Of a DNA stretch of 64,000 nt, positions 785-58,354 are shown one piece after another. The DNA lies in the NCBI GenBank assembly GCA_964517685.1, contig CAZFCF010000003.1, positions 47,706 through 111,705 on the forward strand, read 5' to 3'. Position 1 is the stretch's first letter. Each line of letters starts with the position of its first letter. The DNA comes from an uncultured Gammaproteobacteria bacterium (lineage in GTDB: Bacteria; Cyanobacteriota; Vampirovibrionia; LMEP-6097). Under the pieces are notes generated by a model, which was given only the letters and a program-made list of their open reading frames with translations, ran no database searches and was not told the origin of the DNA. The translations under genes were made by a program, and so were the position numbers.

Positions 785-824
785 GACTTAACTTGCAGAT
801 AACCTATTTATTTAAGAGCCTCTC

Positions 825-3944: not shown

Positions 3945-4937
3945 ATGCATATAGTTATTTTTGGTATTGGCGCAATTGGAGGGTTCTACGGTATCACTCT
4001 TGCAAGGTATCTGAAAAACAATCCTAGAGAAGATTTCAAAATTAGTTTTATTGCTAGAGGGCAAACTTTTGAAAACTTAAAACATTTTGGAGCTAAATTA
4101 ATTTGTAAAAGAGACACTCTTGGTGAAATGCAAGAGTCTATTGTTGTAGAAAATAATTTTACTTTGGTAAAAAAATATCAAGAGTTAGAAATTAATCCAG
4201 ATGAATATACTTTGGTTTTGCTTTGTGTCAAATCCAAAGACACTATTGATGCTTGCAAAGATATAAAAACTAAACTTACTGATAATACTGCTGTGATCTC
4301 AGTGCAAAATGGAATTGAGAATGAAGAAAGAATTGCAGAAATTTTGGGAATCAAGCATGCAATTGGTTCTCTGACTACGATTGCTGCAGAAACTTTAGAG
4401 CCAGGGATCTATCTTCAGAAAGGTGGTTACGGATTTACTATTGGTGAATTGACAGAGAACATTGGTTATAAGTGGGCTGATAAAAAAAGAATAGATTATA
4501 TTTATAACTTTTTAAAAGAAGCCGGTTTGAGTATTTCACAAACTGAAAATATTAAAGAAGAGCTGTGGATTAAATTAGTTTGGAATGCAGCTTTTAATCC
4601 TATTAGTGTCCTGTATGAAAATACTGTTGGGCAACTACTTGCAGATCCTAAGAAAAAAGCACTTATTGAAGGAGTGATGTTTGAAGTTACTGAAGTGGCT
4701 GCCGCAGAAGGATATAAGTTGCCTGATGGTATAGAGCAGAAGCAAATTGGCAGGACTAGTAGTCCGATTTGGTATGACTTCAGAACTTCGATGTTACAAG
4801 ATTTTCAAAAAGGTAGAGAAATTGAGCTTGATGATTTATTGGGAGTCATTGTTCGCAAAGCCAAAGAGCATGATATCGATGTGCCAAATGCTGAAAAAGT
4901 TTTTAGTGAGCTTTCGGCCGTCATTGCGAGGAGTTAA
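3945..4937 (+). CDS. panE: 2-dehydropantoate 2-reductase (ketopantoate reductase, PanE/ApbA)
   Basis: N-terminal Rossmann motif MHIVIFGIGAIGGFYG. About 330 aa, with KPR-like central and C-terminal regions. The last residues (SAVIARS-stop) are encoded by the MITE at 4917-5019. Confidence 0.65.
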   Translation: MHIVIFGIGAIGGFYGITLARYLKNNPREDFKISFIARGQTFENLKHFGAKLICKRDTLGEMQESIVVENNFTLVKKYQELEINPDEYTLVLLCVKSKDTIDACKDIKTKLTDNTAVISVQNGIENEERIAEILGIKHAIGSLTTIAAETLEPGIYLQKGGYGFTIGELTENIGYKWADKKRIDYIYNFLKEAGLSISQTENIKEELWIKLVWNAAFNPISVLYENTVGQLLADPKKKALIEGVMFEVTEVAAAEGYKLPDGIEQKQIGRTSSPIWYDFRTSMLQDFQKGREIELDDLLGVIVRKAKEHDIDVPNAEKVFSELSAVIARS

Positions 4938-5019
4938 AAGCGACGAAGCAATCCAGTTTGCGCAGGGGGATTGCTTCGCTGGCCGTCACTGCGAGCGAAG
5001 CGCGGCAGTCGCAATGACG
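4917..5019. mobile_element. RPE-like palindromic MITE (family A), full-length copy
   Basis: gccgtcattgcgaggag...cgacgaagcaatcc...ggggattgcttcgct...cgcaatgacg. Terminal inverted repeat gtcattgcga/tcgcaatgac plus an internal inverted repeat gaagcaatcc/ggattgcttc. Family recurs at least 10 times in the window. Confidence 0.8.
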
Positions 5020-7761: not shown

Positions 7762-7787
7762 ATCCTGTTCGAAAAATCCCATCTGCG

Positions 7788-7878
7788 TTGTTACGCTCGC
7801 CCCTCGGAGATCCTCATTGACAATCAGTCAACTCCGGTTCCTCGGGGACTCGCAAGCCTAGCATCTGGGAGCTTTTCG
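7788..7878 (-). repeat. GC-rich ~100-bp repeat element, copy 2 (family B, inverted relative to copy 1)
   Basis: Its reverse complement matches 825-924 apart from an internal segment where both copies keep a hairpin through compensatory changes (tttac..gtaaa versus ttgac..gtcaa). Flanked by an extra inverted repeat cttttcgaatag / ctattcgaaaag (7870-7904). Confidence 0.8.
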
Positions 7879-7940
7879 AATAGGATCTTAGTAATTAAGA
7901 ATCTATTCGAAAAGTACAGTATTATTGAGTTATACAGCGT

Positions 7941-15281: not shown

Positions 15282-15386
15282 CCGTCATTGCGAGCCACGA
15301 AGTGGCGTGGCAATCCAGTCAGCGCACGGGGATTGCTTCGTCAGGCTTTGCCTTCCTCGCAATGACACGCTACGCTCGCAATGACG
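15282..15386. mobile_element. RPE-like MITE (family A) copy, intergenic with duplicated right end
   Basis: ccgtcattgcgagccacgaagtggcgtggcaatcc...ggggattgcttcgtcagg...cctcgcaatgacacgctacgctcgcaatgacgg. Confidence 0.75.
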
Positions 15387-15412: not shown

Positions 15413-16915
15413 CTATTTAGCTTGCACTATCAAATTAATTTTCAAAATCTGCGCTGCAACTTCATTGGCGATTTTAAAAGCAGATATTTTTACTTCAGTT
15501 GGATCTATAACTCCAGCTTCTTCTAAATCAAGTAATTCACCATTATCAAGATCAATACCCTTAGTATTTTGCGGGCTAAGGCTAAGTTTAGTAATCAATT
15601 CACTGAATTCAAATCCTGCATTAGTAACTATTTGTTTGAATAGTGCTGCAAGTGATTCAATAACCACATCAAAGCCGGCAGAGATTTCAGTGTCGTTTTT
15701 GAATTCTTGTTTTGATTCTTGTAAATTTTTAATTAGATTAAGCTCGGCAATACCTTCACCCATTAAGTAACCTGACTTCAGGGTTGCGATCATGGCTTGA
15801 ATGGCATCTTTAGTAATGCGCTTACGTTCCTCAAGGATAGTTTCAGTTTCAGCATTAATAATGATAGTGGCTTGATATTGCTTACTGCCAATTAAGCTAA
15901 AACCAGCGAGCTCGGGATAGTAAGTAATTTTTTCTAAGCTACCAGAATAATCTTTGAGATTTTGCTCTGAGCTTAATAAGTTTGCTCTAGTAGTTAATTG
16001 TGAGCCGCTTGCTTGAATTAAATTATCGATATCAGATTTTTTTAGATGAGTTAAAACAAAAATTCCTGACTTCACAAAAAATTCTTCAATAGTTGGAAAC
16101 ATCGAGGCACTAGTGAAAACTGCTTTAATACCCGATTTAGAAATTTTCTTAGCAGAGTCTAGCAGCGTTTGAATATTGTTTTCAAATCTTTTGACACCTT
16201 CATCAGTGCTTATAGCCTCGCTGGACATTGGTTCTGGCTCAAAAGGCCCTTCGATAATTAGGCAGCTTAGCTCATTGAAACTTTGTGAGTAATTAAAATG
16301 AGTTTTCTTTTTGATAAATAAGCCATCTAGAACTCGTGATTCTGAGAGGCTTGTAGCAACAACTGCTTCTGCAAGATCGTAACTATCATTAATGAGAATA
16401 TTTGTTTTATTCTTGTCGATAATTTTTTTAGCAGCATCAATGATTAATTCCGTGATGATTTGATTTTCTCTTGCGGCAATAGAAACTACTTGTTTGAGTT
16501 TTTCATCATTTATATCTTTGATGGGTTTAGAACTTTTTCTAAATTCATTAATTAACTTTTCTGAAGCTATTTGAATACCTTTGACCAAGCGTGAAGTTTT
16601 TGCACCATTATTAATTTTGTTTTGGGCGCTACTTAGAAGGGCGTCAATTAGAATCGCTGTACTAGTAGTACCATCACCAACTTGAGCTTCTTGAGATTTA
16701 AGTGCTTCATTAACCAGCCTAGAAATCGGATGGAGAATTTTTAGATTGCTAAGAATTTCGACGCCATCATTAGTGCAAGTAGTGTGACCAAATTCATCAA
16801 CTAACATTACATCAAGTCCTTTTGGACCTACAGTGCCTTTTACAGTGGCCACAAGGGATGCTACCGCATTAATATTGGAATTGAGAATGTCTGAGTATTT
16901 TTGGTTGTCTAGCAT
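15413..16915 (-). CDS. group II chaperonin (thermosome/CCT-like Cpn60, TCP-1 family)
   Basis: VGPKGLDVMLVDEFGHTTCTNDGVEILSNLKILHPISRLVNEALKSQEAQVGDGTTSTAILIDALL aligns residue by residue with the archaeal thermosome ([28 protein letters not shown]...VGDGTTTAVVLAGELL). 500 aa, no GGM tail. Confidence 0.75.
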   Translation of the reverse strand: MLDNQKYSDILNSNINAVASLVATVKGTVGPKGLDVMLVDEFGHTTCTNDGVEILSNLKILHPISRLVNEALKSQEAQVGDGTTSTAILIDALLSSAQNKINNGAKTSRLVKGIQIASEKLINEFRKSSKPIKDINDEKLKQVVSIAARENQIITELIIDAAKKIIDKNKTNILINDSYDLAEAVVATSLSESRVLDGLFIKKKTHFNYSQSFNELSCLIIEGPFEPEPMSSEAISTDEGVKRFENNIQTLLDSAKKISKSGIKAVFTSASMFPTIEEFFVKSGIFVLTHLKKSDIDNLIQASGSQLTTRANLLSSEQNLKDYSGSLEKITYYPELAGFSLIGSKQYQATIIINAETETILEERKRITKDAIQAMIATLKSGYLMGEGIAELNLIKNLQESKQEFKNDTEISAGFDVVIESLAALFKQIVTNAGFEFSELITKLSLSPQNTKGIDLDNGELLDLEEAGVIDPTEVKISAFKIANEVAAQILKINLIVQAK

Positions 16916-19864: not shown

Positions 19865-19899
19865 TCAGGGGGATTGCTTCGCTACGCTCGCAATGACGG
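19865..19899. mobile_element. RPE-like MITE half-element forming the 3' end of the ADH gene
   Basis: cagggggattgcttcgctacgctcgcaatgacggc. Read on the minus strand it encodes the last residues VIASVAKQSP and the stop of the 19865-20902 CDS. Confidence 0.7.
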
Positions 19900-20902
19900 C
19901 TTTTAAAATTTTCCCTTCAATCATTTCTTGCAAAGCAATTTCCAAATCTTCTAATTTAAATTCTGCTGTAATTAAATCACTTATATCAATTGTGCTATTT
20001 GCAAGTAATTCAAGAGCTTGCTGAATATATTGTGGACGATGATGAAAAGTACCAATCATTCTGATCTCTTGATAATGAATTTGATAAGTGTCAAATACAA
20101 CTTTTGAATCTTTTTTACAACCACCAAAGAAATTTATTAAACCACCAGGTCTCACCATCTTCATGCAATCTAACCAAGCTTCAGGTTTGCCCACGGCTTC
20201 AAAAACCACATCAGCACCAAAGCCATTGATGGCTTTTATTTTATTTGTGAATTCTGGATCTTTGTAATCAAAAATAAAATCAGCACCATTGGCTTTAGCA
20301 AGTTTTGTTTTCAATGCAGAATTGCCAATCGCAATTATAGTGATATTCTTGCGTAACTTTCTACAAAGCTTAATAAAAGTTAAACCGATAGCACCAATGC
20401 CATAGACGCAAACCATGTCATTGTCTTTGATTCCTGATTTCTCAAAGCCATGTAAAGTTACTGCTAAAGTCTGCACAACGGCTGCAGTTTTAAAATCAAG
20501 TGATTCAGGAATTTTGTATAAGTTATTTTCTACAATGCTTTCAGGAATTTTTATTAGTTCGGCAAATGAGCCATTGAGAAATTCTAGATTTTCACAAAGT
20601 TCAAATTCTTCTTTGCGGCAAAAAAAACATTTATAACAAGGAGCAGTATTTGCGGCGGTAACTTTATCTCCGATAGTGAATTTTGGATTTTTAGTTTCTT
20701 TAACTATTCCTGAAAATTCATAACCGAAACTTGAGGGAATGCTTTTGATTAATTTAGGATGACCCTGAAGGTAAGTTTTAGTATCAGTACCTCCAGTTAG
20801 TGCAGCTTTTATTTCCACCAAAACCTCACCCTTACTTATGTTAGGGTCTTGAATATTTTCAATCCTTAAATCTTTTGGTCCGTAGAATAATATAGCTTTC
20901 AT
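19865..20902 (-). CDS. zinc-dependent alcohol dehydrogenase / medium-chain dehydrogenase-reductase (threonine/sorbitol dehydrogenase-like)
   Basis: MKAILFYGPKDLRIENIQDPNISKGEVLVEIKAALTGGTD...; structural-zinc Cys cluster CYKCFFCRKEEFELC; GxGxxG-like VYGIGAIGL. The C-terminal 10 aa are MITE-derived. Confidence 0.7.
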   Translation of the reverse strand: MKAILFYGPKDLRIENIQDPNISKGEVLVEIKAALTGGTDTKTYLQGHPKLIKSIPSSFGYEFSGIVKETKNPKFTIGDKVTAANTAPCYKCFFCRKEEFELCENLEFLNGSFAELIKIPESIVENNLYKIPESLDFKTAAVVQTLAVTLHGFEKSGIKDNDMVCVYGIGAIGLTFIKLCRKLRKNITIIAIGNSALKTKLAKANGADFIFDYKDPEFTNKIKAINGFGADVVFEAVGKPEAWLDCMKMVRPGGLINFFGGCKKDSKVVFDTYQIHYQEIRMIGTFHHRPQYIQQALELLANSTIDISDLITAEFKLEDLEIALQEMIEGKILKAVIASVAKQSP

Positions 20903-20985: not shown

Positions 20986-23133
20986 ATGCTCGAAAAAAAA
21001 CTAAAAACATTTTTACTCTTAGCAGTACTAGGCTTTTTGCCTTTATCACTGCCATTTTGCCTACCTTGTTCTGCAAAAATTGATCTGGACGAAGAATTTT
21101 TTAATAGATACTCAGCAGCTATTAATGAAGAGAAAATAGGCAATACTCTTTCTGCTGTTAAAAGTTACCAACAAGCTTTAAAAATTCAACCACGTGATTA
21201 TGATGCGCTTTTAAAATTAGGACTACTTTATCTAAACAATGGTGCTGAAGGAGCAATTAGGCAAGAAGGCATTAAGCTGTCTCTTGATTATTTTAAAAAA
21301 GCCGAATCAGTTAAACAAAATGATGCTCTTTTATATCTGCTAATGGGAAGAGCTTATGAAGAGATTGGTGAAATTGATAATGCGGTAATCTCTTTTACTA
21401 AAGCTTCAAACCTTGATCCAGAGAATATTTTATTAAAATCAAATTTAGGTAGATTATATTTTGAGAAAAAAGATTTTAAAAATTCAATTGAAATTTTCAA
21501 CAAAGTAATTCTTGCTTATCCGGATAATCTAAAAGCCCGAGGTTATTTAGGAGCTTCACTTCAATCTACTGATAATTATTTAGCTGCAATCGAGCAGTAC
21601 AACTACATCCTAGACTATACGCCAAATGAATATAGCATTCTAAAAAACATTGGTGATTCATGGCTTGCTGTTGGTAAATTTGATAAAGCGAAAGAAAGCT
21701 ATGAGAAAGCTAAGAATGTAGATCCAAACGTTCCTAATATATATGCTGATCTTGCCTATGTATCAAGACAAGAGCAGGATTACAAATCTGCAATTGAGAA
21801 CTACAAAAAAGCTTTGCAACTAAAAGGTACTAATGAAGATTGGAAAAAATCTCTAGCTTATTCTTATTGGTTTGCTGATCAGAAAAAAGAAGCAGTGCAA
21901 GTTTTTACTGAAGTTAAAAACTATGCTGTAGCAGGATATATTCAACAAACTTTAGGTGATACTAATGGTGCAATTGAAAGCTACAAAAAAGCTCTAGAAC
22001 TTAATCCTAAGGACATCAAGAGTAGATTTAATCTTGCAAGAATTTATCACGAATCTAAACAACTTGATTTAGCTCAAGCTGAATATGAAAAAGTTCTTCA
22101 ACAAAAACCAAATGATGTTGAGTCAATATTTTTACTTGCAACTTTAAGACAAGAAGAAGGTGATCTTGATATCGCTATGAATTATTACAATGAGCTTCTA
22201 ACACAGCATTTGGCTACTACTGATGCAACTAAGCTCGATGATACTTCTAAGCTTATTAAGAACAATGTTAATTACAATCTAGGTTTGGCTTATAAGTCAC
22301 AACAAAAACTAGATAAAGCTGAACAGAATTTTGAAGAATTAGTGAAAGATGGAGCTACTAAAGATTTAGCTTTTGAGAAAGGTAAGAATGTCTACAAAGA
22401 ACTTAGCTTTATCAAAATTGCTTTAGGAAAAAACATTGAAGCTGAAAGAACAATCAATGACTGGCTTAGAGAAGATCCAACCAGTGTGGAAGCAAGAAAT
22501 CTTTATGCTGACTTCTTAGTTCATCTTGATAAAGAGCGTAAAGCTGTTGAGCAATTGCGTTTAGCATCAGCATTAGACAAGACTTCTACAACTAGATTGA
22601 AGCTTGCCAACTTATTGCATTCACAAAACAATCTTTATGAGGCTCTTGCTGAGTACCAAGTAGTGCTGCAAGAAGATCCTAGTAATTTAAATGCGCTATT
22701 GGGTGCAGCTAATAATTTCAAAGCTCTTGGTTTTAAGCAAGAGGCTGTCAATATTTATAAAGATGCTCTGAAAAGATATCCTAATGATGTTTTGACAAAC
22801 TATAACTATGGTCTCTTGATGCATGAAGACAATAATCTTGGTTTAGCGCGCGAGCAGTATGAGAAAGTTTTGGCATTGAATCCTAACTTTACTCAAACCT
22901 ACTACGTATTAGGTTTAGTATATTGGGATACTGATCAAAAAGATAAGGCTAAAGAAGTTTGGTCTAAATTCTTAGGCAGCTCTGCTGATGAAGGTTTAAA
23001 ACAACAAATCAGAAATATTGTTGACACTGGAATTAAAACTGACCAAGCTTTAAAACAACAAGGTATTGATCCAACGCCACTTGAAGCAACTAAGGCGCAG
23101 AGTATGGGTGCTGAGCAACCAAGTAAGACTTAG
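20986..23133 (+). CDS. secreted tetratricopeptide-repeat (TPR) protein (715 aa)
   Basis: Signal peptide, then many 34-aa repeats with the W/LG-Y-A-F-A-P TPR consensus (AYEEIGEIDNAVISFTKASNLDPEN, and so on). Confidence 0.7.
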   Translation: MLEKKLKTFLLLAVLGFLPLSLPFCLPCSAKIDLDEEFFNRYSAAINEEKIGNTLSAVKSYQQALKIQPRDYDALLKLGLLYLNNGAEGAIRQEGIKLSLDYFKKAESVKQNDALLYLLMGRAYEEIGEIDNAVISFTKASNLDPENILLKSNLGRLYFEKKDFKNSIEIFNKVILAYPDNLKARGYLGASLQSTDNYLAAIEQYNYILDYTPNEYSILKNIGDSWLAVGKFDKAKESYEKAKNVDPNVPNIYADLAYVSRQEQDYKSAIENYKKALQLKGTNEDWKKSLAYSYWFADQKKEAVQVFTEVKNYAVAGYIQQTLGDTNGAIESYKKALELNPKDIKSRFNLARIYHESKQLDLAQAEYEKVLQQKPNDVESIFLLATLRQEEGDLDIAMNYYNELLTQHLATTDATKLDDTSKLIKNNVNYNLGLAYKSQQKLDKAEQNFEELVKDGATKDLAFEKGKNVYKELSFIKIALGKNIEAERTINDWLREDPTSVEARNLYADFLVHLDKERKAVEQLRLASALDKTSTTRLKLANLLHSQNNLYEALAEYQVVLQEDPSNLNALLGAANNFKALGFKQEAVNIYKDALKRYPNDVLTNYNYGLLMHEDNNLGLAREQYEKVLALNPNFTQTYYVLGLVYWDTDQKDKAKEVWSKFLGSSADEGLKQQIRNIVDTGIKTDQALKQQGIDPTPLEATKAQSMGAEQPSKT

Positions 23134-23143: not shown

Positions 23144-23231
23144 GCGTCATTGCGAGGAACGTAGTGACGAAGCAATCCCCCTGCGCAAATCAGATTGCCA
23201 CGTCGGGCTTTGCCCTCCTCGCAATGACGAG
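23144..23231. mobile_element. RPE-like MITE (family A) copy, intergenic
   Basis: gcgtcattgcgaggaacgtagtgacgaagcaatccccctgcgcaaatcagattgccacgtcgggctttgccctcctcgcaatgacg. Confidence 0.75.
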
Positions 23232-30396: not shown

Positions 30397-31815
30397 TCAA
30401 AGCGATACCATCTTAATTTGTAGCCTTTTCAAAGCCTCATCTGGATTAAGTTCTCGGCGTATAACTTTTAGGTAAGCATCTTTAATTTCACGCTTATACA
30501 TTTGGCTGAAAGGCAATTGTGGAAAGTATTTGGCATTAGGACTTTTAGCCAGATCAATAAATATTTCTATGTATTGATTTGGATGTTTCTGTATAAAGCT
30601 TTCGCTGTGTGTGTTTAATGGTGTAAATTTTTGTTGTGCTAAAGCTAGATACTCTAGATTTTCTTGTTTGTGTAACCATTTAATGAACTCTGCTGCTTGT
30701 CGAGCGTGTTTCGCGCCTTTGGGAATTGCAAGCGCATCTACCGTTACATAAGTAGCTTTGGGTACTCTGCCTGGAAACGCTCTCACAGAGATATTTAGCT
30801 GCGGTGAGTAAATTTTGGCAAGATTCTTTTCCCAGACCCCATTATTCTCAAGTGCAATTTTGCCAGAGTAAAAAGGATTGTCCGGACTTTGGTAAGCATG
30901 AAAGCCTTCAGTATATGAAGCGAGTTTTTGTGGGTCGATTTTGCTTGCGAAGTTTTCTACTGCCCAGTTCCAGGCTTCGAGGTTTTCGGGGGAGTAGGCG
31001 GTGATTTGCCACTCGTCATTGCGAGGAACGGAGTGACGAAGCAATCCATTTCGCGCAGGGGGATTGCCGCGCCCACTATGTGGGCTCGCAATGACGTTTG
31101 ATTTCACTCCCCACTCCCCACCAAACACAACCGGCAAGAAGCTTCCAGCCCAAGGAGGCCAGCTTGGTAAGTAAGCAATTTCTCTGCCATCACCATGGGC
31201 ATTTATGTGATCGAAGATTTTTACTATATCTTCTAAGCTTGAAGGTTCTGCTAAATGATATTTATCGAGAATATTTTTATTGATGTGAAGGGCTTCGCAA
31301 GTGGGCATCAAAGGCATCGCAAATTGTGAGCCTTGTAAATTCAACATCCTTATATATACCGGAATAAATCTATCCAAATATTCCTGATCAAAAAAATTAT
31401 CAAGTGGTTCTAGAGCGTTGCGTAAAGCAAAGTCACTGACCATATCTCCATCGAGGTGAACTAGATCTGGAGGGACTTTACCTACTATCGAAAGCAAAAT
31501 CTTTTTCTTGGGCATAGAAATGCTAACCATTTTTACTTTGAAATCGTGATCTTCTGAGTTGAATTTTTTTACTAATTCTTCTAAAGGTTTCTTTTCAACG
31601 CCGCTCCAATACTGCCAGAAGGTAATTGTTGTTTTAATGGCGCCGGGGGATTGTTTCGCTTCCACCTTCGCTAATGCTTCGGTGGACAAGCCGCTCGCAA
31701 TGACGGTGTTTGCAATGAAAGACTTCTTATAAAACTCAAAAACAAATACGCCCAGAATCACTAAGAAAAAAATCCATAAAACTATAAAAACTTTTTTTTG
31801 TGGGCTGAGGTTCAT
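30397..31815 (-). CDS. extracellular solute-binding protein (ABC transporter SBP family 1-like) carrying two in-frame MITE insertions
   Basis: N-terminal membrane anchor/signal, then an SBP_bac_1-like body. The two peptide stretches NTVIASGLSTEALAKVEAKQSPGA and SNVIASPHSGRGNPPARNGLLRHSVPRNDEW are direct translations of family-A MITEs at 31644-31706 and 31014-31096. The frame stays open. Confidence 0.55.
   Translation of the reverse strand: MNLSPQKKVFIVLWIFFLVILGVFVFEFYKKSFIANTVIASGLSTEALAKVEAKQSPGAIKTTITFWQYWSGVEKKPLEELVKKFNSEDHDFKVKMVSISMPKKKILLSIVGKVPPDLVHLDGDMVSDFALRNALEPLDNFFDQEYLDRFIPVYIRMLNLQGSQFAMPLMPTCEALHINKNILDKYHLAEPSSLEDIVKIFDHINAHGDGREIAYLPSWPPWAGSFLPVVFGGEWGVKSNVIASPHSGRGNPPARNGLLRHSVPRNDEWQITAYSPENLEAWNWAVENFASKIDPQKLASYTEGFHAYQSPDNPFYSGKIALENNGVWEKNLAKIYSPQLNISVRAFPGRVPKATYVTVDALAIPKGAKHARQAAEFIKWLHKQENLEYLALAQQKFTPLNTHSESFIQKHPNQYIEIFIDLAKSPNAKYFPQLPFSQMYKREIKDAYLKVIRRELNPDEALKRLQIKMVSL
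31014..31096. mobile_element. RPE-like MITE (family A), full copy inserted in-frame inside a CDS
   Basis: cgtcattgcgaggaacggagtgacgaagcaatccatttcgcgcagggggattgccgcgcccactatgtgggctcgcaatgacg. Confidence 0.8.
31644..31706. mobile_element. RPE-like MITE (family A), half element inserted in-frame inside the same CDS
   Basis: cgggggattgtttcgcttccaccttcgctaatgcttcggtggacaagccgctcgcaatgacgg. Confidence 0.75.
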
Positions 31816-31903: not shown

Positions 31904-33199
31904 GTGATTCAAGAAAGAAGAGTTGTAATTACCGGTATCGGTCCTGTGACCTCTGTAGGTATCGGTTTAGAAGAATTTTGGGCAGCCTTGCTTGCTGGTA
32001 AAAGCGGTATTAGTATGCTCGACAATATAAATGAGTATGAAGGTTTCACGCCGCCAGTAAAATTTGGCGGACAAATCAAAAACTTTGATGTGGCAACTTA
32101 CTTTCCTGGAGATCCTCGTGAAATTCGTAGTCTACAAAAAGACATGGATAAGGTCAGCCAATTTGCGATGGTTGCAGCGAAATATGCAATTGAAAATTCT
32201 GGAATTAATTTTGATAAATTAGAAGAGTACGGTTCAGATCGCACTCAGGTAGCGACTTTCATAGGTACTGGTATCGGTGGTATCAAAACTACTTGTGATG
32301 ATATGCAAACTCTAGTTACCCGTGGCATTAAAGCTCTTGGTTTGCGTTCTATTATAAGGCTCATGCCCAATGCGGCATCAGGTCATGTTGCAATCAAATA
32401 TGGTTTGCAAGGTAGAGCTAAGTCAGATGCAACTGCGTGCGCATCGGGTTTGGATAGTTTAATGGATGCTTTCTACTATATAAAGAATGGTCTTGCTGAT
32501 GTTATGGTGACTGGCGGTACTGAAGCGTGTTTGAACACACTTGCTATTTCTTCTTTCTATAATATGACTGCACTTTCTCGTAGAGAGACTGCTCCAGAAG
32601 AAGCGAGCTGCCCGTTTGATAAACGTCGTGATGGTTTTGTGATGTCTGAAGGCGCAGTTGTTTTCACTATAGAAGAATTATCCTTTGCTAAGAAACGTGG
32701 TGCAAAGATATATGCTGAGCTTATTGGCGTAGGTGCTAGTTGTGATGCCTACCATATTACTGCTCCATCTGAAGATGGTAGTGGTGGATCTCGTGCTATT
32801 GAAGCGGCTTTGAAGTGTGCAGGCATGAGTAATGAGCGTGAGAAGATTAATTACATCCACGCACACGGTACTAGCACTCCATTGAATGATGCGCGTGAGA
32901 CTCTTGCAATCAAAAAAGTTTTTGGTGAACATGCTAAAAAGCTTGCAGTATCTTCGACTAAGTCTATGACTGGTCACTTGATTGGTGCTGCCGGTCCTGC
33001 TGGGCTTGCGGTTTGTGCAATGGCTTGTAAGGATGGCAAAGTGCCTCCTACTATCAACTATAAGGAAGCAGACCCTGCTTGTGATTTGGATTATGTGCCA
33101 AATACAGCGCGCTCAATGAATGTGGACTATGCGATGGTCCAAGCTCTTGGCTTTGGTGGACATAATACTGTGGCGATTGTCAAGAAATTTACGGAGTAA
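31904..33199 (+). CDS. fabF: 3-oxoacyl-[ACP] synthase II (beta-ketoacyl-ACP synthase, FabF/FabB family)
   Basis: RRVVITGIGPVTSVG; active-site Cys context ATACASG; HAHGTSTPLND; GHLIGAAG; C-terminal GFGGHN. 431 aa. Confidence 0.85.
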   Translation: MIQERRVVITGIGPVTSVGIGLEEFWAALLAGKSGISMLDNINEYEGFTPPVKFGGQIKNFDVATYFPGDPREIRSLQKDMDKVSQFAMVAAKYAIENSGINFDKLEEYGSDRTQVATFIGTGIGGIKTTCDDMQTLVTRGIKALGLRSIIRLMPNAASGHVAIKYGLQGRAKSDATACASGLDSLMDAFYYIKNGLADVMVTGGTEACLNTLAISSFYNMTALSRRETAPEEASCPFDKRRDGFVMSEGAVVFTIEELSFAKKRGAKIYAELIGVGASCDAYHITAPSEDGSGGSRAIEAALKCAGMSNEREKINYIHAHGTSTPLNDARETLAIKKVFGEHAKKLAVSSTKSMTGHLIGAAGPAGLAVCAMACKDGKVPPTINYKEADPACDLDYVPNTARSMNVDYAMVQALGFGGHNTVAIVKKFTE

Positions 33200-33204: not shown

Positions 33205-33316
33205 GCCGTTATTGCGAGGAGCGAAGCAAGCCTGTCCAGAGCGTAGCGTGGGATGACGATCCAGTCTTCAAATAACTGGATCCTGACGCCTTCTGCGAAG
33301 GCTCAGGATGACGCGG
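33205..33316. mobile_element. composite RPE-like MITE (family A left half fused to a gtcatcctgagc-type palindrome)
   Basis: gccgttattgcgaggagcgaagcaagcc...gggatgacgatccagtc...ggatcctgacgccttctgcgaaggctcaggatgacgcgg. Confidence 0.7.
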
Positions 33317-38990: not shown

Positions 38991-39938
38991 CTAACCTTTA
39001 ATAAGCTGTAGTGCTATTTGTGGAGTTGCATTCGCTTGAGAGAGCATCGCTGCGGCAGTTTGCTGCAGGATTTGGTTCTTGACTAAGATACTACTTTCTT
39101 GAGCAACGTCAACATCTTGGATACGCGATCTAGATGCTTCGGCGTTTTCTTTAGCAATGTCCATGTAGTCAGTTTTTGACTCCAGTGCATTTTGAGTAGC
39201 TCCTAGGTAAGATCTCATTCTAGAGATATTGTCGATAAGAGTATCAATATCACCAACCGAAGCGGCAACGTTAGTTGTGTGAGTAGCATAGTTAAGTGAA
39301 TTAACATTTGCACCACTAATTTGCAATCTATCTAAGGCAAAACCCGTAGTAGTGCCTTCAATGATGTGACCGTAATCAGTTGTACCGCCATCTGCCACTT
39401 CACTGATATCGATGTCGATACCATTGTTAGCTGCATACTCAGAACGTAGACTCAAAACAGTGGTCTGACTTGCATCAGCACCGGTTTGTAGAGTTAAGTC
39501 TGCAGATGAGGAATTGTTACTGCTAAGCAAGTTGATACCATTGAATTTTGTTGATCCAGAAATATCATTGATAACTTTAACTCGCTCGTTAATCTCTCTT
39601 TGTAGAGCGTCTTTCTCGTTAGTGCCGTTAGTTCCGTTGACACCTTGTACAACAAGTTCTCTAATTCTCTGTAAATTTTCTTGTATAACTTGCAAACCAC
39701 CTTCTGATGTTTGAATGAGTGAAATACCATCAGCGGCATTTTGTTTAGCTTTGTCAAGACCGCGAATAGTTGTTGTAAGCTTGTTTGCGATACTTAAGCC
39801 GGCTGCATCATCTGCTGCTCTGTTGATTCTGTAACCTGTAGATAAATGTTCGATATTTCTCTCAAGTCCCATAGTATTCATTCTTAATGCCCTTTGGGCG
39901 AAGATACTTTGTGTGTTTGTGTTTACTACTAATGCCAT
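38991..39938 (-). CDS. fliC: flagellin (copy 1)
   Basis: N-terminus MALVVNTNTQSIFAQRALRMNTMGLERNIEHLSTGYRINRAADDAAGLSIANKL and C-terminus QNQILQQTAAAMLSQANATPQIALQLI are canonical flagellin D0/D1 segments. Confidence 0.9.
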   Translation of the reverse strand: MALVVNTNTQSIFAQRALRMNTMGLERNIEHLSTGYRINRAADDAAGLSIANKLTTTIRGLDKAKQNAADGISLIQTSEGGLQVIQENLQRIRELVVQGVNGTNGTNEKDALQREINERVKVINDISGSTKFNGINLLSSNNSSSADLTLQTGADASQTTVLSLRSEYAANNGIDIDISEVADGGTTDYGHIIEGTTTGFALDRLQISGANVNSLNYATHTTNVAASVGDIDTLIDNISRMRSYLGATQNALESKTDYMDIAKENAEASRSRIQDVDVAQESSILVKNQILQQTAAAMLSQANATPQIALQLIKG

Positions 39939-40149: not shown

Positions 40150-40761
40150 ATGGTAAACATTTCGCCAACAGCCAAATCAAATATATCTAGGTTTCAATCT
40201 GCAGAGGCCCCGGCGGCATCTAATATTAGCTTAGCTGCTGCTAATAATCATGGAGCTAGAGTTAGCAATTTAATCGGTGGTGGTGCTGCAACTGGCTCTA
40301 CAGGCGGTTTAAACAATCCATCAGGTTCTTCACAAACCAAAAGCTCCAAGAGTTTTGCTCAACTCATTGATATGAGTCATTATACTGATACTTACAAAGA
40401 TTATACGGACAAGTCAAAGGAAGCAGAAAATGTTTTAAAAACATATGAATCTAAAGTAGCTACTGGTGATGCTCCTGATAATCCATCTCAATTTCATTCT
40501 TCATATTCAGAAATTCTTTCATTAAATACTTTAGAAGAGTTTTATAAACAAGAAACATTATTCTGGAAATCAGAACAGAGTTTTACTAGTGCCAATCCTG
40601 ATAAATTAACTAAGGGTAGAGCAGACTCCTATAGAAATCTCCAAGATTTAGAAAGCCGTTATGAAGAAGCTTTGATTGCAGGCAATACTATTAAAGCTGC
40701 AGATCTAAAAGGTGATATTAACGCAGCGAAACACAATCTCCAAGCGTCACAGACGGCTTAA
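40150..40761 (+). CDS. hypothetical protein within the flagellin locus (203 aa)
   Basis: ORF only. Ser/Gly/Ala-rich N-terminus, helical C-terminus. The stop overlaps the flagellin copy 2 stop by 4 bp (convergent). Confidence 0.35.
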   Translation: MVNISPTAKSNISRFQSAEAPAASNISLAAANNHGARVSNLIGGGAATGSTGGLNNPSGSSQTKSSKSFAQLIDMSHYTDTYKDYTDKSKEAENVLKTYESKVATGDAPDNPSQFHSSYSEILSLNTLEEFYKQETLFWKSEQSFTSANPDKLTKGRADSYRNLQDLESRYEEALIAGNTIKAADLKGDINAAKHNLQASQTA

Positions 40762-41693
40762 TTTGGTAATAGCGACAAGACTATTTGTGGAGTAGTATTT
40801 GCTTGAGTAAGCATGGCGGCAGCGGTTTGTTGCAAAATTTGGTTCTTCACTAGAATACTACTTTCACGGGCGACATCTACATCTTTAATTCTAGATCTAG
40901 AACTTTCAGAATTTTCACGAGCAATGTCAATAAAATTTACTTTTGATTCGAGAGCATTTTGTGAGGCACCAAGATACGATCTCATTCTGGAAATATTGTC
41001 TATCATTGCATCTAAATCATTAGCTGAAACAGCAACATTCGTTGTATGTGTAGCATAATTAAGCGAATTAACATTTGAACCATTTATGTATAAACGATCT
41101 AGAGCAAAGCCAATTGAAGTGCCTTCAATTAAGTGACCATAGTCAGTTGTACCACCATCTGCAACTTCGCTTATATCAATGTCAATCCCGATCTGGGATT
41201 GAACTCCAGATTCAAATTTAATTTCTGAATTTTGTCCATTTACAGTTCCAGTTTGTAAGATTCGATCTGTAGTCCCTGCAAGCAAACTAATTCCATTAAA
41301 TTGAGTTGCTTGAGATATATCAGAAATAATTTTAATCCTTTCGTTTATTTCTCTTTGTAGAGCACCTTTTTCGTTAGAGCTATAAGTGCCGCTTGTACCT
41401 TGGATAACCAATTCCCTGATTCTTTGTAAGTTTTCTTGGATTACTTCTAAGCCACCCTCAGCTGTCTGTAGCATTGAAACACCGTCGCCAGCGTTCTGCA
41501 TAGCTTTCTCTAAGCCTTTTAATTCAGTAGTTATTTTATTACTGATACTTAAACCTGCCGCATCATCGGCAGCTCTATTTATTCTAAAACCTGTAGACAA
41601 ATGTTCGATATTTGCCTTTAAACCATCGGTGTTAACTCTCAGTGCTCTTTGAGCAAAAAGACTTTGAGTATTGGTGTTGATTGATAATCCCAC
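40758..41693 (-). CDS. fliC: flagellin (copy 2, divergent paralog)
   Basis: MGLSINTNTQSLFAQRALRVNTDGLKANIEHLSTGFRINRAADDAAGLSISNKI...LTQANTTPQIVLSLL. Conserved termini with a diverged central domain. Confidence 0.9.
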   Translation of the reverse strand: MGLSINTNTQSLFAQRALRVNTDGLKANIEHLSTGFRINRAADDAAGLSISNKITTELKGLEKAMQNAGDGVSMLQTAEGGLEVIQENLQRIRELVIQGTSGTYSSNEKGALQREINERIKIISDISQATQFNGISLLAGTTDRILQTGTVNGQNSEIKFESGVQSQIGIDIDISEVADGGTTDYGHLIEGTSIGFALDRLYINGSNVNSLNYATHTTNVAVSANDLDAMIDNISRMRSYLGASQNALESKVNFIDIARENSESSRSRIKDVDVARESSILVKNQILQQTAAAMLTQANTTPQIVLSLLPN

Positions 41694-41936: not shown

Positions 41937-42887
41937 TTAGCCGCCTTTAATAAGCTGTAGTGCTATTTGTGGGGTTGCGTTCGCTTGCGAGAGCATCGCT
42001 GCGGCAGTTTGCTGCAGGATTTGGTTCTTGACTAAGATGCTACTTTCTTGAGCAACGTCAACATCTTGGATACGCGATCTAGATGCTTCGGCGTTTTCTT
42101 TAGCAATGTCCATGTAGTCAGTTTTTGACTCCAGTGCATTTTGAGTAGCTCCTAGGTAAGATCTCATTCTAGAGATATTGTCGATAAGAGTATCAATATC
42201 ACCAACCGAAGCGGCAACGTTAGTTGTGTGAGTAGCATAGTTAAGTGAATTAACATTTGCACCACTAATTTGCAATCTATCTAAGGCAAAACCCGTAGTA
42301 GTGCCTTCAATGATGTGACCGTAATCAGTTGTACCGCCATCTGCCACTTCACTGATATCGATGTCGATACCATTGTTAGCTGCATACTCAGAACGTAGAC
42401 TCAAAACAGTGGTCTGACTTGCATCAGCACCGGTTTGTAGAGTTAAGTCTGCAGATGAGGAATTGTTACTGCTAAGCAAGTTGATACCATTGAATTTTGT
42501 TGATCCAGAAATATCATTGATAACTTTAACTCGCTCGTTAATCTCTCTTTGTAGAGCGTCTTTCTCGTTAGTGCCGTTAGTTCCGTTGACACCTTGTACA
42601 ACAAGTTCTCTAATTCTCTGTAAATTTTCTTGTATAACTTGCAAACCACCTTCTGATGTTTGAATGAGTGAAATACCATCAGCGGCATTTTGTTTAGCTT
42701 TGTCAAGACCGCGAATAGTTGTTGTAAGCTTGTTTGCGATACTTAAGCCGGCTGCATCATCTGCTGCTCTGTTGATTCTGTAACCTGTAGATAAATGTTC
42801 GATATTTCTCTCAAGTCCCATAGTATTCATTCTTAATGCCCTTTGGGCGAAGATACTTTGTGTGTTTGTGTTTACTACTAATGCCAT
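41937..42887 (-). CDS. fliC: flagellin (copy 3, near-identical to copy 1)
   Basis: Coding sequence essentially identical to 38991-39938 over about 950 bp, with a few substitutions at the 3' end. Flanking DNA is unrelated. Confidence 0.9.
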   Translation of the reverse strand: MALVVNTNTQSIFAQRALRMNTMGLERNIEHLSTGYRINRAADDAAGLSIANKLTTTIRGLDKAKQNAADGISLIQTSEGGLQVIQENLQRIRELVVQGVNGTNGTNEKDALQREINERVKVINDISGSTKFNGINLLSSNNSSSADLTLQTGADASQTTVLSLRSEYAANNGIDIDISEVADGGTTDYGHIIEGTTTGFALDRLQISGANVNSLNYATHTTNVAASVGDIDTLIDNISRMRSYLGATQNALESKTDYMDIAKENAEASRSRIQDVDVAQESSILVKNQILQQTAAAMLSQANATPQIALQLIKGG

Positions 42888-46183: not shown

Positions 46184-46255
46184 TGTCATTCAGAGCACGC
46201 GGAAGCGTGCGTAGGAATCCAGCGCGGGGAGATTGCTTCGCTTCGCTCGCAATGA
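46184..46255. mobile_element. RPE-like MITE (family A variant) copy, intergenic
   Basis: ctgtcattcagagcacgcggaagcgtgcgtaggaatccagcgcggggagattgcttcgcttcgctcgcaatgac. Confidence 0.7.
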
Positions 46256-46261
46256 CAAAAC

Positions 46262-47062
46262 TTAAAACCTAGAATGCTCTAGAACTTTATCAGCACCAAA
46301 AAATTCATCGCTAGGAATTTTTTCAATTAAAGTGAAAAGTAATTTACGAAGATTTTCGATATTCTGTCCGAATACTTTAATTACTTCAGAGTGACTAACT
46401 GGAGCTGCACCAGTTGCTACACCTGAGTCGTAGTCAGTGATTAAAGAGATATTCACTGCAGCCATTCCAGCTTCACGCACTAAATGAGCTTCTGGGTATT
46501 GAGTCATATTGATTACTTCCCAGCCCATTTTGTGGAACCATTCAGATTCTGCTCTGGAGCTGAATCTTGGACCATTGATAACTACTACAGTGCCGCGCTC
46601 GTGTACTGGAATGCCATGCTCTTTTGCTGCAGCAATTGCCAGCTTACGGAGCTCAGGAGTATAAGGCTCTGCTGGACTTACGTGCGTAGCAATTGGTCCA
46701 TCAAAAAAAGTATCTAAACGTGAATGAGTTCTATCAACCCATTGATCTGCAATCACAAATTCACCTGGCTTAACATGCGCTTGCAAACTACCTGCCGCGC
46801 AAGGACAGATTACTGTTGAGCAACCAAGCTCTTTAAAAGCCCAGACATTAGCTCTGTAATTGATTTTGTGAGGTGGAATTCTATGATGACGATCATGTCT
46901 TGGCAAAAAGGCTACAGTTTTACCGCCATGTTCACCGATAAAGACTTGATCCGAGGGCGATCCATAAGGAGTTTCTACCGTAAGTTCCTTAACATTATCC
47001 AGGAAGGCATAAAGTCCGCTTCCACCAAAAATCCCTATATCTGCACGTTTATTTCTTGCCAT
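46262..47062 (-). CDS. mtnP: S-methyl-5'-thioadenosine phosphorylase (MtnP/MTAP, PNP family 2)
   Basis: ADIGIFGGSGLY N-terminus, HGGKTVAFLPRHDRHH, and a conserved C-terminal region. 266 aa. Confidence 0.8.
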   Translation of the reverse strand: MARNKRADIGIFGGSGLYAFLDNVKELTVETPYGSPSDQVFIGEHGGKTVAFLPRHDRHHRIPPHKINYRANVWAFKELGCSTVICPCAAGSLQAHVKPGEFVIADQWVDRTHSRLDTFFDGPIATHVSPAEPYTPELRKLAIAAAKEHGIPVHERGTVVVINGPRFSSRAESEWFHKMGWEVINMTQYPEAHLVREAGMAAVNISLITDYDSGVATGAAPVSHSEVIKVFGQNIENLRKLLFTLIEKIPSDEFFGADKVLEHSRF

Positions 47063-49907: not shown

Positions 49908-49945
49908 TGTCATTGTGAGGAGTGAAACGACGAAGCAATCCCCCC
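49908..49945. mobile_element. RPE-like MITE (family A) left half-element
   Basis: tgtcattgtgaggagtgaaacgacgaagcaatccccc. Confidence 0.65.
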
Positions 49946-58149: not shown

Positions 58150-58235
58150 GGGTAGGTGTCCGAGTGGCTAAAGGAGGCAGACTGTAAATCTGCTCACGTA
58201 AGTGTTCGCTGGTTCGAACCCAGCCCTACCCACCA
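58150..58235 (+). tRNA. tRNA-Tyr (anticodon GTA), long variable arm
   Basis: gggtaggtgtccgagtggctaaaggaggcagactgtaaatctgc...ggttcgaacccagccctacccacca. Acceptor stem GGGTAGG/CCTACCC, anticodon loop ctGTAaa, T-loop GGTTCGAAC, encoded CCA. Collinear with E. coli tRNA-Tyr. Confidence 0.85.
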
Positions 58236-58354
58236 TTTTTAAGTTTGCGCATAATTAAGTTCGAACTCAGCGAATCGCTGGTTGATCCTTAGTAATGCGA
58301 CCTTCGGTCGCGAGCCCTACCCACCATTTTTAAGTTTGCGCATAATTAAGTTCG
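58223..58354 (+). repeat. 41-bp direct repeat duplicating the tRNA-Tyr 3' end (att-like)
   Basis: gccctacccaccatttttaagtttgcgcataattaagttcg occurs at 58223-58263 and again at 58314-58354. The copies are separated by about 50 bp that contain a small hairpin (gcgaccttcggtcgc). Confidence 0.8.

What the first reader, a model, noticed from the sequence alone, without database searches (positions are those of the whole stretch)
30397..31815. Two palindromic MITEs inserted in-frame inside a solute-binding-protein gene (RPE-like behaviour)
The reading frame at 30397-31815 stays open for 472 codons. Two stretches of it are plainly the dispersed family-A palindromic element translated in frame. 31014-31096 encodes SNVIASPHSGRGNPPARNGLLRHSVPRNDEW. 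31644-31706 encodes NTVIASGLSTEALAKVEAKQSPGA. The same element is intergenic elsewhere in the window. It encodes similar VIA[SR]../..AKQSP peptides where it overlaps the panE and ADH gene ends. In-frame insertion of palindromic repeats into protein-coding genes without disrupting them is the hallmark described for Rickettsia palindromic elements. Seeing it here in an organism with a different gene repertoire (leuC, aroA, korAB, flagella) suggests an independent or previously unreported instance.
Basis: partly seen in the sequence, partly recalled or inferred. Interest (0 to 1): 0.8.

Follow-up and report, generated by a model that had tools for sequence, protein, structure and literature searches.

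The report
Palindromic REP repeats translated inside gene
Two copies of a small hairpin-forming DNA repeat sit in frame inside an otherwise intact sugar-binding-protein gene of a Melainabacteria-like bacterium and add two floppy loops to the protein; the repeat is a CGTC-tagged REP, the superfamily that includes some Rickettsia palindromic elements, so this is a real event of a kind already documented.

Summary
ORF 30397-31815 (-) is an intact 472-aa SBP_bac_1/8 protein. Alignment with 31 homologues shows that residues ~38-56 and 241-267 are absent from almost all of them. AlphaFold gives a confident MalE-like fold (pLDDT 89) in which only these two segments are low-confidence.

The second insert is exactly 81 nt (27 codons), a head-to-head dimer of a repeat unit. 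The first is a single unit with an enlarged inner hairpin. About 14 units occur in the window (15 core matches against 0.8 expected). Most lie just 3' of genes, and two supply the C-terminal tail and stop codon of panE and a Zn-ADH.

The unit, (C/T)GTC-ATTGCGAG-hairpin-CGAAGCAAT-CCA, fits the CGTC-tagged REP superfamily (Di Nocera 2013). That superfamily contains Rickettsia RPE-4/RPE-6, and in-frame intragenic copies are already catalogued for it. No consistent target-site duplication or transposase was found, so "MITE" is not supported.

The same core occurs in at least 15 phyla and in viral contigs. It is in frame in uvrA and guaA of other bacteria. It also sits at other loops of orthologous SBPs.

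Verdict: RPE-like behaviour is supported, but the element belongs to that known superfamily rather than being independent. It is a new member of a known kind.

The parts
30397..31815 (-). Host gene: 472-aa solute-binding protein (SBP_bac_1/SBP_bac_8, MalE-like) with an N-terminal transmembrane anchor. Its orthologues lie next to fabF in the four related loci fetched.
   Evidence: Pfam hits at E 1e-17 and 6e-16. Closest PDB entry is 4r9f. 120 homologues found. All 55 invariant family columns are retained. AlphaFold pLDDT 89.4. Synteny shown.
31014..31096 (.). Insert 2: a head-to-head REP dimer made of units 31014-31048 (+) and 31060-31096 (-). GTC..GAC is 81 nt, or 27 codons, encoding VIASPHSGRGNPPARNGLLRHSVPRND (aa 241-267).
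   Evidence: Both 11-nt boxes are perfect. It folds at -24.8 kcal/mol, z = -4.6. It is absent from the 31 aligned homologues; only one clade has an unrelated insert at this loop. pLDDT is below 50 for residues 246-264. Codon view.
31647..31705 (-). Insert 1: a single REP unit with an enlarged inner hairpin (CCACC..GGTGG) and a degenerate 3' box (GAAACAATCC). It encodes VIASGLSTEALAKVEAKQSP in the linker between the membrane anchor and the SBP domain.
   Evidence: The segment is absent from 28 of the 31 aligned homologues; three homologues (P0018, P0023, P0026) carry an insert of their own at this site. pLDDT is 53-62 for residues 41-60.
4919..5019 (.). Composite REP dimer. Its first unit supplies the last residues (VIARS) and the stop codon of panE (3945-4937, +).
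   Evidence: ApbA/ApbA_C.
15283..15386 (.). Intergenic REP dimer plus an extra partial unit, 28 nt downstream of the 3' end of ORF 15413-16915 (-).
19870..19898 (-). Short-form single REP unit of 29 nt, CGTCATTGCGAGCGTAGCGAAGCAATCCC. It supplies the tail VIASVAKQSP and the stop codon of Zn-ADH (19865-20902, -).
23145..23229 (.). Intergenic REP dimer, 12 nt downstream of ORF 20986-23133 (+). It is the only copy with an abutting 5-bp direct repeat (AGCGG).
   Evidence: (-26.3 kcal/mol, z = -5.8).
33207..33229 (+). Degenerate REP unit (CGTTATTGCGAG..), 8 nt downstream of fabF (31904-33199).
   Evidence: E 0.005.
46229..46257 (-). Short-form single REP unit with a TGTC tag, 5 nt downstream of ORF 46262-47062 (-).
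49908..49942 (+). Single REP unit (TGTC tag, GTCATTGTGAG) in the divergent intergenic region between ORFs 49003-49881 (-) and 50409-52016 (+).

Best explanation
The two segments are copies of a CGTC-tagged REP, a short hairpin-forming repeat. The unit reads (C/T)GTC-ATTGCGAG-[small hairpin, often N-GAA-N]-CGAAGCAAT-CC(A). It occurs singly or as head-to-head dimers.

Shown:
- The copies entered an orthologous, conserved carbohydrate-type solute-binding-protein gene.
- One is a dimer of exactly 27 codons in a loop between two beta-strands.
- The other is a single unit in the linker after the membrane anchor.
- Both are read in the stop-free 'VIA...' frame.

Inferred:
- The gene stays functional. 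These copies survive because their length is a multiple of three, the GC-rich element is open in 3 of 6 frames, and the sites are structurally tolerant.
- The REP-encoded residues are translated as disordered, probably neutral decorations.
- Spread is by the still unknown mechanism that disperses CGTC REPs. It probably recognises a DNA hairpin, makes no target-site duplication and needs no element-encoded transposase. This last point is speculative.

Elsewhere in the window the same units sit in the usual REP position, immediately 3' of genes. There they probably act as transcript-end hairpins, and twice they donate a C-terminal tail and a stop codon.
For: Repeat family:
- 15 core matches against 0.77 expected; about 14 units by nhmmer.
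- Dimers fold with z = -3.3 to -5.8.

Insertion status:
- Both segments are missing from nearly all homologues.
- The 4r9f alignment is gapped at the same place.

Intact host gene:
- All 55 invariant columns are retained.
- pLDDT is 89.4 and pTM 0.81, with low confidence only at residues 41-60 and 246-264.
- The fold is MalE-like.
- The fabF-SBP neighbourhood is conserved in four other genomes.
- The conserved transmembrane anchor lies upstream of insert 1, so insert 1 must be translated for the protein to be exported.

Frame and length: 81 nt equals 27 codons, and 3 of 6 frames are open.

Same element at other loops of orthologues, in other frames, so these are independent events:
- L001: GTCATTGCGAGGAGCGCGAAGCGCGACGAAGCAATC encodes VIARSAKRDEAI.
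- L122: RHCEPEGRSNP appears twice, together with LAMT and RND.
- P0042, P0045 and P0082 carry REP-type peptides.

Same element in frame in other genes and phyla: uvrA, guaA and a PD-(D/E)XK nuclease; nadC of L001.

Fit to the CGTC REP format:
- The tag is CGTC in 63% and TGTC in 33% of 179 units. CCA is the commonest tail and the stem begins with AT.
- All four window dimers have their tags outward, and most copies lie just 3' of genes.
- The published definition and its intragenic catalogue include RPE-4/6.
Against: - No expression or proteomic data exist, so translation of the REP segments is inferred.
- No closely related genome with an empty site exists. The best non-self homologue is 58-60% identical. 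Insertion is therefore inferred from distant alignments, not from an allele pair.
- The stem is only 5 contiguous Watson-Crick pairs. It reaches the published 8-9 bp only if tandem G.A pairs and a bulge are counted, and the long forms have far larger loops than the published 4-5 nt.
- The exact core is not in the paper's text or supplements. Family assignment therefore rests on format, not on published consensus identity.
- The mobilising mechanism is unknown.
Confidence: 0.85

Rival explanations
1. The elements are true MITEs: deletion derivatives of an insertion sequence, mobilised in trans by its DDE transposase through the terminal inverted repeats.
For: Full copies are about 83 nt long with perfect 11-12-nt inverted termini. 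One copy (23145-23229) has an abutting 5-bp direct repeat, AGCGG.
Against: - 7 of 8 copies have no abutting duplication.
- Half-units are as common as dimers and carry the same tag and tail.
- No transposase was found among the 20 small ORFs scanned.
- The only IS seen near the repeat (L051) has unrelated ends and sits inside a REP cluster as a target.
- The same 20-nt core in at least 15 phyla is not how IS-derived MITEs behave.
Confidence: 0.05
2. The gene is a decaying pseudogene, or is not translated through the repeats. For example, the N-terminal REP might lie in a 5' leader and translation might start downstream.
For: No expression data are available. The CGTC/GTAG paper warns that many N-terminal 'intragenic' REPs are annotation artefacts. 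The SBP has no adjacent permease or ATPase genes.
Against: - A 472-codon ORF is open in a 37% GC genome.
- All invariant residues are retained and the fold prediction is confident.
- The orphan fabF-adjacent arrangement is the conserved state in orthologues.
- The homologous membrane anchor is upstream of insert 1. The next Met is about residue 96, which would remove the conserved FWQYWSG strand.
Confidence: 0.07
3. The inserts are not neutral passengers. This SBP is a preferred target, or REP-encoded loops are selected, for example for surface variation of an exposed binding protein.
For: - Both internal copies in the 64-kb window fall in this one gene, which is 2.2% of the sequence.
- All three GTCATTGCGA-box matches (5 of 6 motif matches in all) in the 7.9-kb L122 lie inside its orthologue, and 3 of 5 motif matches (1 of 2 GTCATTGCGA boxes) in L001 do.
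- Orthologues show inserts of 8 aa or more at 6 or more loops. Several are REP-derived and in different frames.
Against: - The same element is in frame in unrelated genes: nadC in L001, and uvrA and guaA elsewhere.
- The insert sequences are not conserved between orthologues.
- The inserts are predicted to be disordered.
- Tolerance of long surface loops in an extracytoplasmic protein explains the pattern without any targeting.
Confidence: 0.12
4. The segments are ancestral SBP sequence, or arose locally by convergence or slippage, and only resemble the repeat.
For: Both sites are naturally length-variable loops in the family.
Against: - Both 11-nt terminal boxes are perfect, and the boxes are 88-89% identical to intergenic copies.
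- GC is 56-60% in the inserts against 41% in the gene and 37% in the window.
- The segments are absent from nearly all 110 homologues.
Confidence: 0.01

Closest known systems
CGTC-tagged REP superfamily (Di Nocera, De Gregorio & Rocco 2013, BMC Genomics 14:522, PMC3733652), families CGTC-1 to CGTC-4
   Same: - An unpaired CGTC (or TGTC) tag and a stem that starts with AT.
- A 3-nt tail close to CCA, and predominantly head-to-head dimers.
- Copies mostly lie within 30 nt of gene 3' ends.
- In-frame intragenic copies encode 8-30 residues, sometimes twice in one gene.
- No associated transposase.
- The terminal nucleotides CGTCATT / AATCCA are identical to those implied by CGTC-1 peptides such as VIPAKAGI and DSRLRGND.
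   Different: - The stem interior is ATTGCGAG/CGAAGCAAT rather than the CGTC-1 type inferred from its peptides (ATTCCCGC/GCGGGAAT).
- It has only 5 contiguous Watson-Crick pairs, plus G.A pairs.
- Long forms carry an extra inner hairpin, so loops far exceed 4-5 nt.
- The core is not present in the paper's text or supplements.
- The host is a Melainabacteria-like lineage, and the element is found in at least 15 phyla, against 5 reported for CGTC repeats.
Rickettsia palindromic elements (RPE; Ogata et al. 2000 and 2002, from my own knowledge). According to PMC3733652, RPE-4 equals CGTC-4 and RPE-6 equals CGTC-1.
   Same: The palindromic repeat is inserted in frame into functional genes. It adds a peptide at surface or loop positions without destroying the fold, and the same family is also intergenic.
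   Different: - Sequence identity to any RPE consensus was not tested here, because no RPE sequences were available.
- RPE-1 is longer (about 100-150 bp) and is not stated to be CGTC-type.
- The host here is a free-living-type genome with flagella and korAB, not a reduced intracellular alphaproteobacterium.
REPIN/RAYT systems (Bertels & Rainey 2011, PMC3116915; Nunvar 2010, PMC2817692)
   Same: Two REP units in inverted orientation form one long hairpin and are the presumed mobile unit. REP singlets occur as remnants, and there is no target-site duplication.
   Different: - REPINs carry GTAG tags and are tied to a single-copy Y1 transposase gene flanked by the same REPs.
- Here the tag is CGTC.
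- No Y1_Tnp was found in the scanned window ORFs, and none has been reported for CGTC REPs.
Bacterial MITEs found inside genes, for example the Coxiella burnetii MITEs (PMC5896051); reviewed in PMC10969869
   Same: They are small non-coding repeats with inverted termini, and some copies extend or interrupt ORFs in frame.
   Different: MITEs are defined by IS-like terminal inverted repeats, target-site duplications and a parent IS. Target-site duplications were tested here and not met, and no parent IS was seen.

Membership tests
CGTC-tagged REP superfamily | Unpaired terminal tetranucleotide CGTC (variants TGTC/CCTC) at one end of each unit | tested here: met
   Window units: 10 of 13 have CGTC and 3 have TGTC. 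In 179 pooled units the tag is CGTC in 63% and TGTC in 33%.
CGTC-tagged REP superfamily | Stem of 8-9 bp beginning with A-T, T-A pairs | tested here: inconclusive
   The stem starts with ATT/AAT, so that part is met. There are only 5 contiguous Watson-Crick pairs (ATTGC/GCAAT). Nine pairs are reached in the modal 29-nt form only if a tandem G.A/A.G, a 1-nt bulge and 2 further Watson-Crick pairs are counted (pairing worked out by hand).
CGTC-tagged REP superfamily | Loop of 4-5 nt | tested here: inconclusive
   The short form closes on a GAA, GTA or GCA triloop. Long forms, including both SBP copies, carry 12-36-nt spacers that hold an extra hairpin. The paper notes aberrant loops in Bradyrhizobium CGTC-1.
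CGTC-tagged REP superfamily | 3-nt unpaired tail, consensus CCA, at the untagged end | tested here: met
   After GCAAT the sequence is CCA in 75 of 179 units (CAG 64 plus CAT 11 after GCAATC), and otherwise CTC or CCC. Window units have CCA or CCC.
CGTC-tagged REP superfamily | Predominantly head-to-head dimers with tags outward | tested here: met
   All four window dimers and 28 dimers from other phyla have their tags outward.
CGTC-tagged REP superfamily | Dispersed, mostly intergenic and close to ORF 3' ends, with some in-frame intragenic copies | tested here: met
   Six of the 9 loci lie at or within 30 nt of a gene's 3' end. The other three are the two inside the SBP and one in a divergent intergenic region.
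Rickettsia palindromic elements (RPE) | In-frame insertion into genes that retain function, at surface or loop positions | tested here: met
   Retention of function is inferred from conservation and was not measured.
Rickettsia palindromic elements (RPE) | Sequence similarity to an RPE consensus (RPE-1 to RPE-8) | not tested
There is only the literature statement that RPE-4/6 are CGTC-4/1, and their peptides (VIPAKAGI, VIPWLDHGI) differ internally from VIAS..KQS.
MITE | Target-site duplication flanking each copy | tested here: not met
   An abutting direct repeat is present at only 1 of 8 copies (5 bp, at 23145-23229).
MITE | Terminal inverted repeats matching a resident autonomous IS | not testable with these tools
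   Only 64 kb of the genome is available. No transposase was found among the 20 small ORFs scanned.
REPIN/RAYT | GTAG-tagged REPs and a cognate Y1 transposase (RAYT) gene flanked by the REPs | tested here: not met
   The tag is CGTC, not GTAG. There was no PF01797 hit in the scanned ORFs. Genome-wide absence cannot be tested.

The most novel reading that the evidence does not exclude
The ATTGCGAG-type CGTC REP is a single, nearly invariant ~29-nt hairpin module. It is present in at least 15 bacterial phyla and in viral contigs, and no transposase of its own is known.

Such conservation would imply a universal or widely transferred hairpin-specific machinery that still moves it. It would also imply that it preferentially lands in, or is retained in, particular genes: this fabF-adjacent SBP in Melainabacteria and DNA-repair genes such as uvrA elsewhere.

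That would make it a pan-bacterial source of protein loop insertions rather than a lineage curiosity.
Probability: 0.15. Interest if true: 0.7.

Novelty: new member of a known kind. Interest (0 to 1): 0.4.

Why it matters
It extends RPE-like, protein-coding palindromic repeats to the non-photosynthetic cyanobacterial relatives (Melainabacteria/Vampirovibrionia). It also provides a clean example: an exact 27-codon dimer in a loop of a confidently modelled fold, with independent insertions of the same element at other loops of orthologues.

For annotation, REP-derived peptides (VIAS/VIAR.., ..KQSP, ..PRND, ..LAMT, RHCE..) inflate protein lengths and create spurious C-terminal tails in these genomes.

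The wider point deserves its own study. A roughly 20-nt REP core is shared almost unchanged across many phyla and in viral contigs, and its mobilising enzyme is unknown.

Tried and rejected
1. Rfam. At gathering threshold the whole window gave only a tRNA, so the element is not a curated RNA family.
2. Source contig. An exact look-up of the source contig through P0001 failed, so the organism is inferred from homologue names (Melainabacteria/Caenarcaniphilales) and from about 70% nucleotide identity to GCA_013565675.1.
3. Literature searches.
   - The core sequence returned only unrelated primers.
   - REP-derived peptides returned nothing.
   - Among the listed results of the search combining Melainabacteria with the REP terms, none mentioned Melainabacteria.
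   - RepRanger (PMC12306157), the R. japonica genome paper and the HUH phylogenomics paper added nothing specific.
4. REP-flanked transposase. In loci where two dimers bracket 1-3 kb I found ordinary genes. In L051 an IS with unrelated ends is inserted into a REP cluster, so there the REP is a target, not cargo.
5. Target-site duplications. None were consistent. The EW..EW residues flanking the SBP dimer are both ancestral, as shown by P0002 HW..VW, and are not a duplication.
6. P0060-clade inserts at the same loop. They are AT-rich and show no REP motif, so they were not counted as REP events.
7. Long ORFs spanning REPs in high-GC genomes (Bradyrhizobium and others). These were treated as spurious unless Pfam confirmed a real gene.
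Full report
**Observation**

The 11-mer GTCATTGCGAG, with at most one mismatch, occurs 15 times in the 64-kb window against 0.77 expected, and no shuffle reaches that number. Repeat finding groups the copies into one family (families D4, D6, D7, D9, D13, D19). An nhmmer profile built from ten units recovers about 14 units and nothing else.

**Anatomy of the element**

- The basic unit reads (C/T)GTC-ATTGCGAG-spacer-(C)GAAGCAAT-CC(A/C).
- In its shortest form it is 29 nt. Examples are 19870-19898 and 46229-46257.
- Longer forms carry an extra small hairpin in the spacer, often N4-GAA-N4.
- Units occur singly or as head-to-head dimers with the CGTC tags outward and a variable central loop.
- The dimers are 83-101 nt and fold as one long hairpin with z-scores of -3.3 to -5.8. 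Single units do not fold better than shuffled sequence.
- The elements are 56-60% GC in a 36.8% GC window.

The copy at 31014-31096 is a complete dimer. The copy at 31647-31705 is one unit with an enlarged inner hairpin and a slightly degenerate 3' box, not a full palindrome.

**The host gene**

- The protein matches SBP_bac_1 and SBP_bac_8. Its closest solved relative is the mannobiose-binding protein 4r9f.
- It has 120 homologues. Those that carry names come from Melainabacteria or Caenarcaniphilales MAGs, and the best non-self match is 58-60% identical.
- In the four related loci that I fetched, the gene lies divergently next to fabF, with ruvA close by in all four (and, in L001, flagellin genes and a ~1,560-aa ORF as in the window). 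It is therefore an orthologous, conserved gene and not a stray fragment.
- The query retains all 55 invariant columns of the family alignment.
- AlphaFold gives mean pLDDT 89.4 and pTM 0.81. The only low-confidence stretches are residues 41-60 (pLDDT 53-62) and 246-264 (below 50), which are the two repeat-encoded segments.

**Are the segments insertions?**

In the 32-sequence alignment and the 111-sequence alignment both segments fall in columns that are empty in almost all homologues.

- Insert 2 is exactly GTC...GAC, 81 nt or 27 codons (aa 241-267). It lies between beta-strands 236-238 and 269-271.
- Insert 1 lies between the N-terminal membrane anchor and the first conserved strand (FWQYWSG).
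- The anchor upstream of insert 1 aligns with the anchors of the orthologues. The next in-frame Met would delete conserved structure. Insert 1 therefore has to be translated if the protein is to be exported.
- For the dimer, three of the six frames are stop-free, and the frame used is one of them.

**Behaviour elsewhere**

In the window, the other units sit where REPs usually sit, within about 30 nt of gene 3' ends. Two overlap coding ends. They give panE the tail ..SAVIARS* and a zinc alcohol dehydrogenase the tail ..KAVIASVAKQSP*. No other window ORF contains an internal copy.

Orthologous SBPs in other genomes carry the same element at different loops and in different frames:

- L001 has GTCATTGCGAGGAGCGCGAAGCGCGACGAAGCAATC, read as VIARSAKRDEAI, plus a second box-B remnant.
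- L122 has two separate insertions, read as RHCEPEGRSNP....LAMT.. and ..RND.
- P0042, P0045 and P0082 show ..PRNDE..APRNDG and IASEAKHS...GLLRRYAPRND.

Across the family, inserts of 8 or more residues occur at six or more sites.

The element is not specific to this gene:

- nadC in L001 has a degenerate unit, HVFARSATTKQS.
- In unrelated MAGs the element is in frame inside uvrA, guaA and a PD-(D/E)XK nuclease.

**What it is**

Di Nocera et al. 2013 (PMC3733652) sorted most bacterial REPs into GTAG-tagged and CGTC-tagged superfamilies. They define CGTC REPs by these features:

- a CGTC tag (often TGTC);
- an AT-initiated stem of 8-9 bp;
- a 4-5-nt loop;
- a tail close to CCA;
- predominantly head-to-head dimers;
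- a position next to ORF 3' ends;
- occasional in-frame intragenic copies;
- no associated transposase.

They state that Rickettsia conorii RPE-6 and RPE-4 are CGTC-1 and CGTC-4, and that Neisseria dRS3 is CGTC-1. Their Additional file 3 lists dozens of in-frame copies, including double insertions in one gene. The peptides there (VIPAKAGI, SFPRKRES, DSRFRGND, WIPAFAGMT) are the frame-by-frame counterparts of VIASVAKQS, SLRG....ARND and ..LAMT here.

In 179 units pooled from the window and 120 other genomes:

- the tag is CGTC in 63% and TGTC in 33%;
- the commonest tail is CCA;
- the stem begins with ATT;
- the modal spacer gives a 29-nt unit. By hand-pairing, that unit forms 5 Watson-Crick pairs, a tandem G.A, 2 more Watson-Crick pairs and a GAA triloop.

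The format therefore fits. The stem interior (ATTGCGAG/CGAAGCAAT) and the long-spacer forms do not match CGTC-1 to CGTC-4, and the core is absent from that paper's text and supplements. I file it as a further family within the CGTC superfamily.

It is not a MITE in the strict sense. Only 1 of 8 copies has an abutting direct repeat, and no transposase was found among the 20 small ORFs scanned.

**Distribution**

The taxa include:

- Alphaproteobacteria: many Bradyrhizobium including complete chromosomes, Sphingomonadales, Rickettsiales and Micavibrio;
- Gammaproteobacteria, including Legionellales;
- Desulfobacterota, Myxococcota and Helicobacter;
- Chloroflexota, Bacteroidota and Ignavibacteriota;
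- Nostoc, Microcoleus and Melainabacteria;
- Patescibacteria, Planctomycetota, Omnitrophota, Zixibacteria, Latescibacterota, Gemmatimonadota and Armatimonadota;
- Sporomusa.

The published survey reported CGTC repeats in five phyla, so this is far broader. The cause is unexplained; it could be a conserved trans-acting machinery or horizontal spread.

**Mechanism**

Shown:

- The inserts are repeat copies.
- They are in frame.
- The host fold and the conserved residues are intact.
- Insertions into orthologues are independent events.

Inferred:

- The gene is expressed and functional.
- The inserts are tolerated, largely neutral, disordered loops.
- They are survivors of a filter for length divisible by three, a stop-free frame and a tolerant site.

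Speculative:

- The mode of spread. For CGTC REPs no enzyme is known. The hairpin architecture, the tag and tail, and the lack of target duplications suggest a single-strand, hairpin-recognising process like that of RAYT/REPIN, but nothing here tests that.

**Verdict**

The 'MITE' label and the 'independent, unreported' claim are not. This is a new host lineage and a new stem variant of a documented phenomenon. I score interest at 0.4. The event itself is ordinary for this repeat superfamily. The recurrent use of one orthologous SBP and the cross-phylum near-identity of the core are the parts worth following.

Noticed in passing
L002-L121 (genome contigs) and L125-L204 (viral contigs): The REP core GTCATTGCGAG-N4-30-GAAGCAATC is almost unchanged in at least 15 bacterial phyla and in at least 120 IMG/VR viral contigs. 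Some viral contigs carry 5-6 units all on one strand (L139, L160), and L170 carries 4 units at 33-nt spacing. No explanation for this conservation is known.
   Followed up: partly
L115:1761-4490 (-), L091:4073-5743 (+), L073:1656-4484 (+), L001:11896-12858 (+): The same REP is in frame inside uvrA (..VIASKAKQSHSTGSANNGIATSPLAPRND..), guaA (inside the GATase domain) and a PD-(D/E)XK nuclease in unrelated MAGs. It is also inside nadC of a Melainabacteria MAG, which has two extra segments relative to its orthologue in L123.
   Followed up: partly
window 813-943 (+) and 7759-7890 (-): There is a second, unrelated repeat of about 130 nt. It is GC-rich and intergenic, in two inverted copies that are 87% identical and 6.8 kb apart. 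Each copy folds as one long hairpin (alifold -56.5 kcal/mol), and three base pairs are kept by changes on both sides. There is no Rfam match even at E <= 1.
   Followed up: partly
Homologues P0011, P0041, P0044, P0030, P0045, P0047, P0082 (alignment sites after core columns 138 and 186/187): A different repeat-like peptide family (..SERNAADEALGAG, ..EYNAADGALQTG, ..DERNAVAEDLRSG) is inserted at two other loops of the SBP orthologues. P0047 has it twice, which suggests a second in-frame palindromic element family in these genomes. The DNA was not examined.
   Followed up: no
Homologues P0023 and P0026 (N-terminal linker and the loop after core column 303); window 33207-33300: Sister CGTC-type boxes are implied by peptides such as VILNEVKDP.., ..LRYAQDD and RHPERSEGSP. 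In L122 the DNA reads ..CGCTCAGGATGAC. This suggests that several CGTC families coexist in these genomes. The window has a degenerate composite copy just 3' of fabF.
   Followed up: no
L051:540-1860: In a Patescibacteria MAG, an IS with a 308-aa transposase and ends GGTAATTAGTACCCTAATGGTTGATGA is inserted between or inside CGTC REP dimers. Here the REPs serve as an IS target. The IS ends are unrelated to the REP.
   Followed up: partly
window 38991-39938, 40758-41693, 41937-42887 (all -): There are three tandem flagellin-like paralogues. The first and third are 99-100% identical over the three repeat blocks reported (300, 231 and 166 nt), and the middle one is about 71% identical. This suggests recent duplication or gene conversion.
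   Followed up: no
window 58150-58354: A tRNA lies at 58150-58232. It is followed by a perfect 42-nt direct repeat (58222-58263 and 58313-58354) that begins in the tRNA 3' end. This could be a 91-nt tandem duplication or the remnant of an integration site.
   Followed up: no
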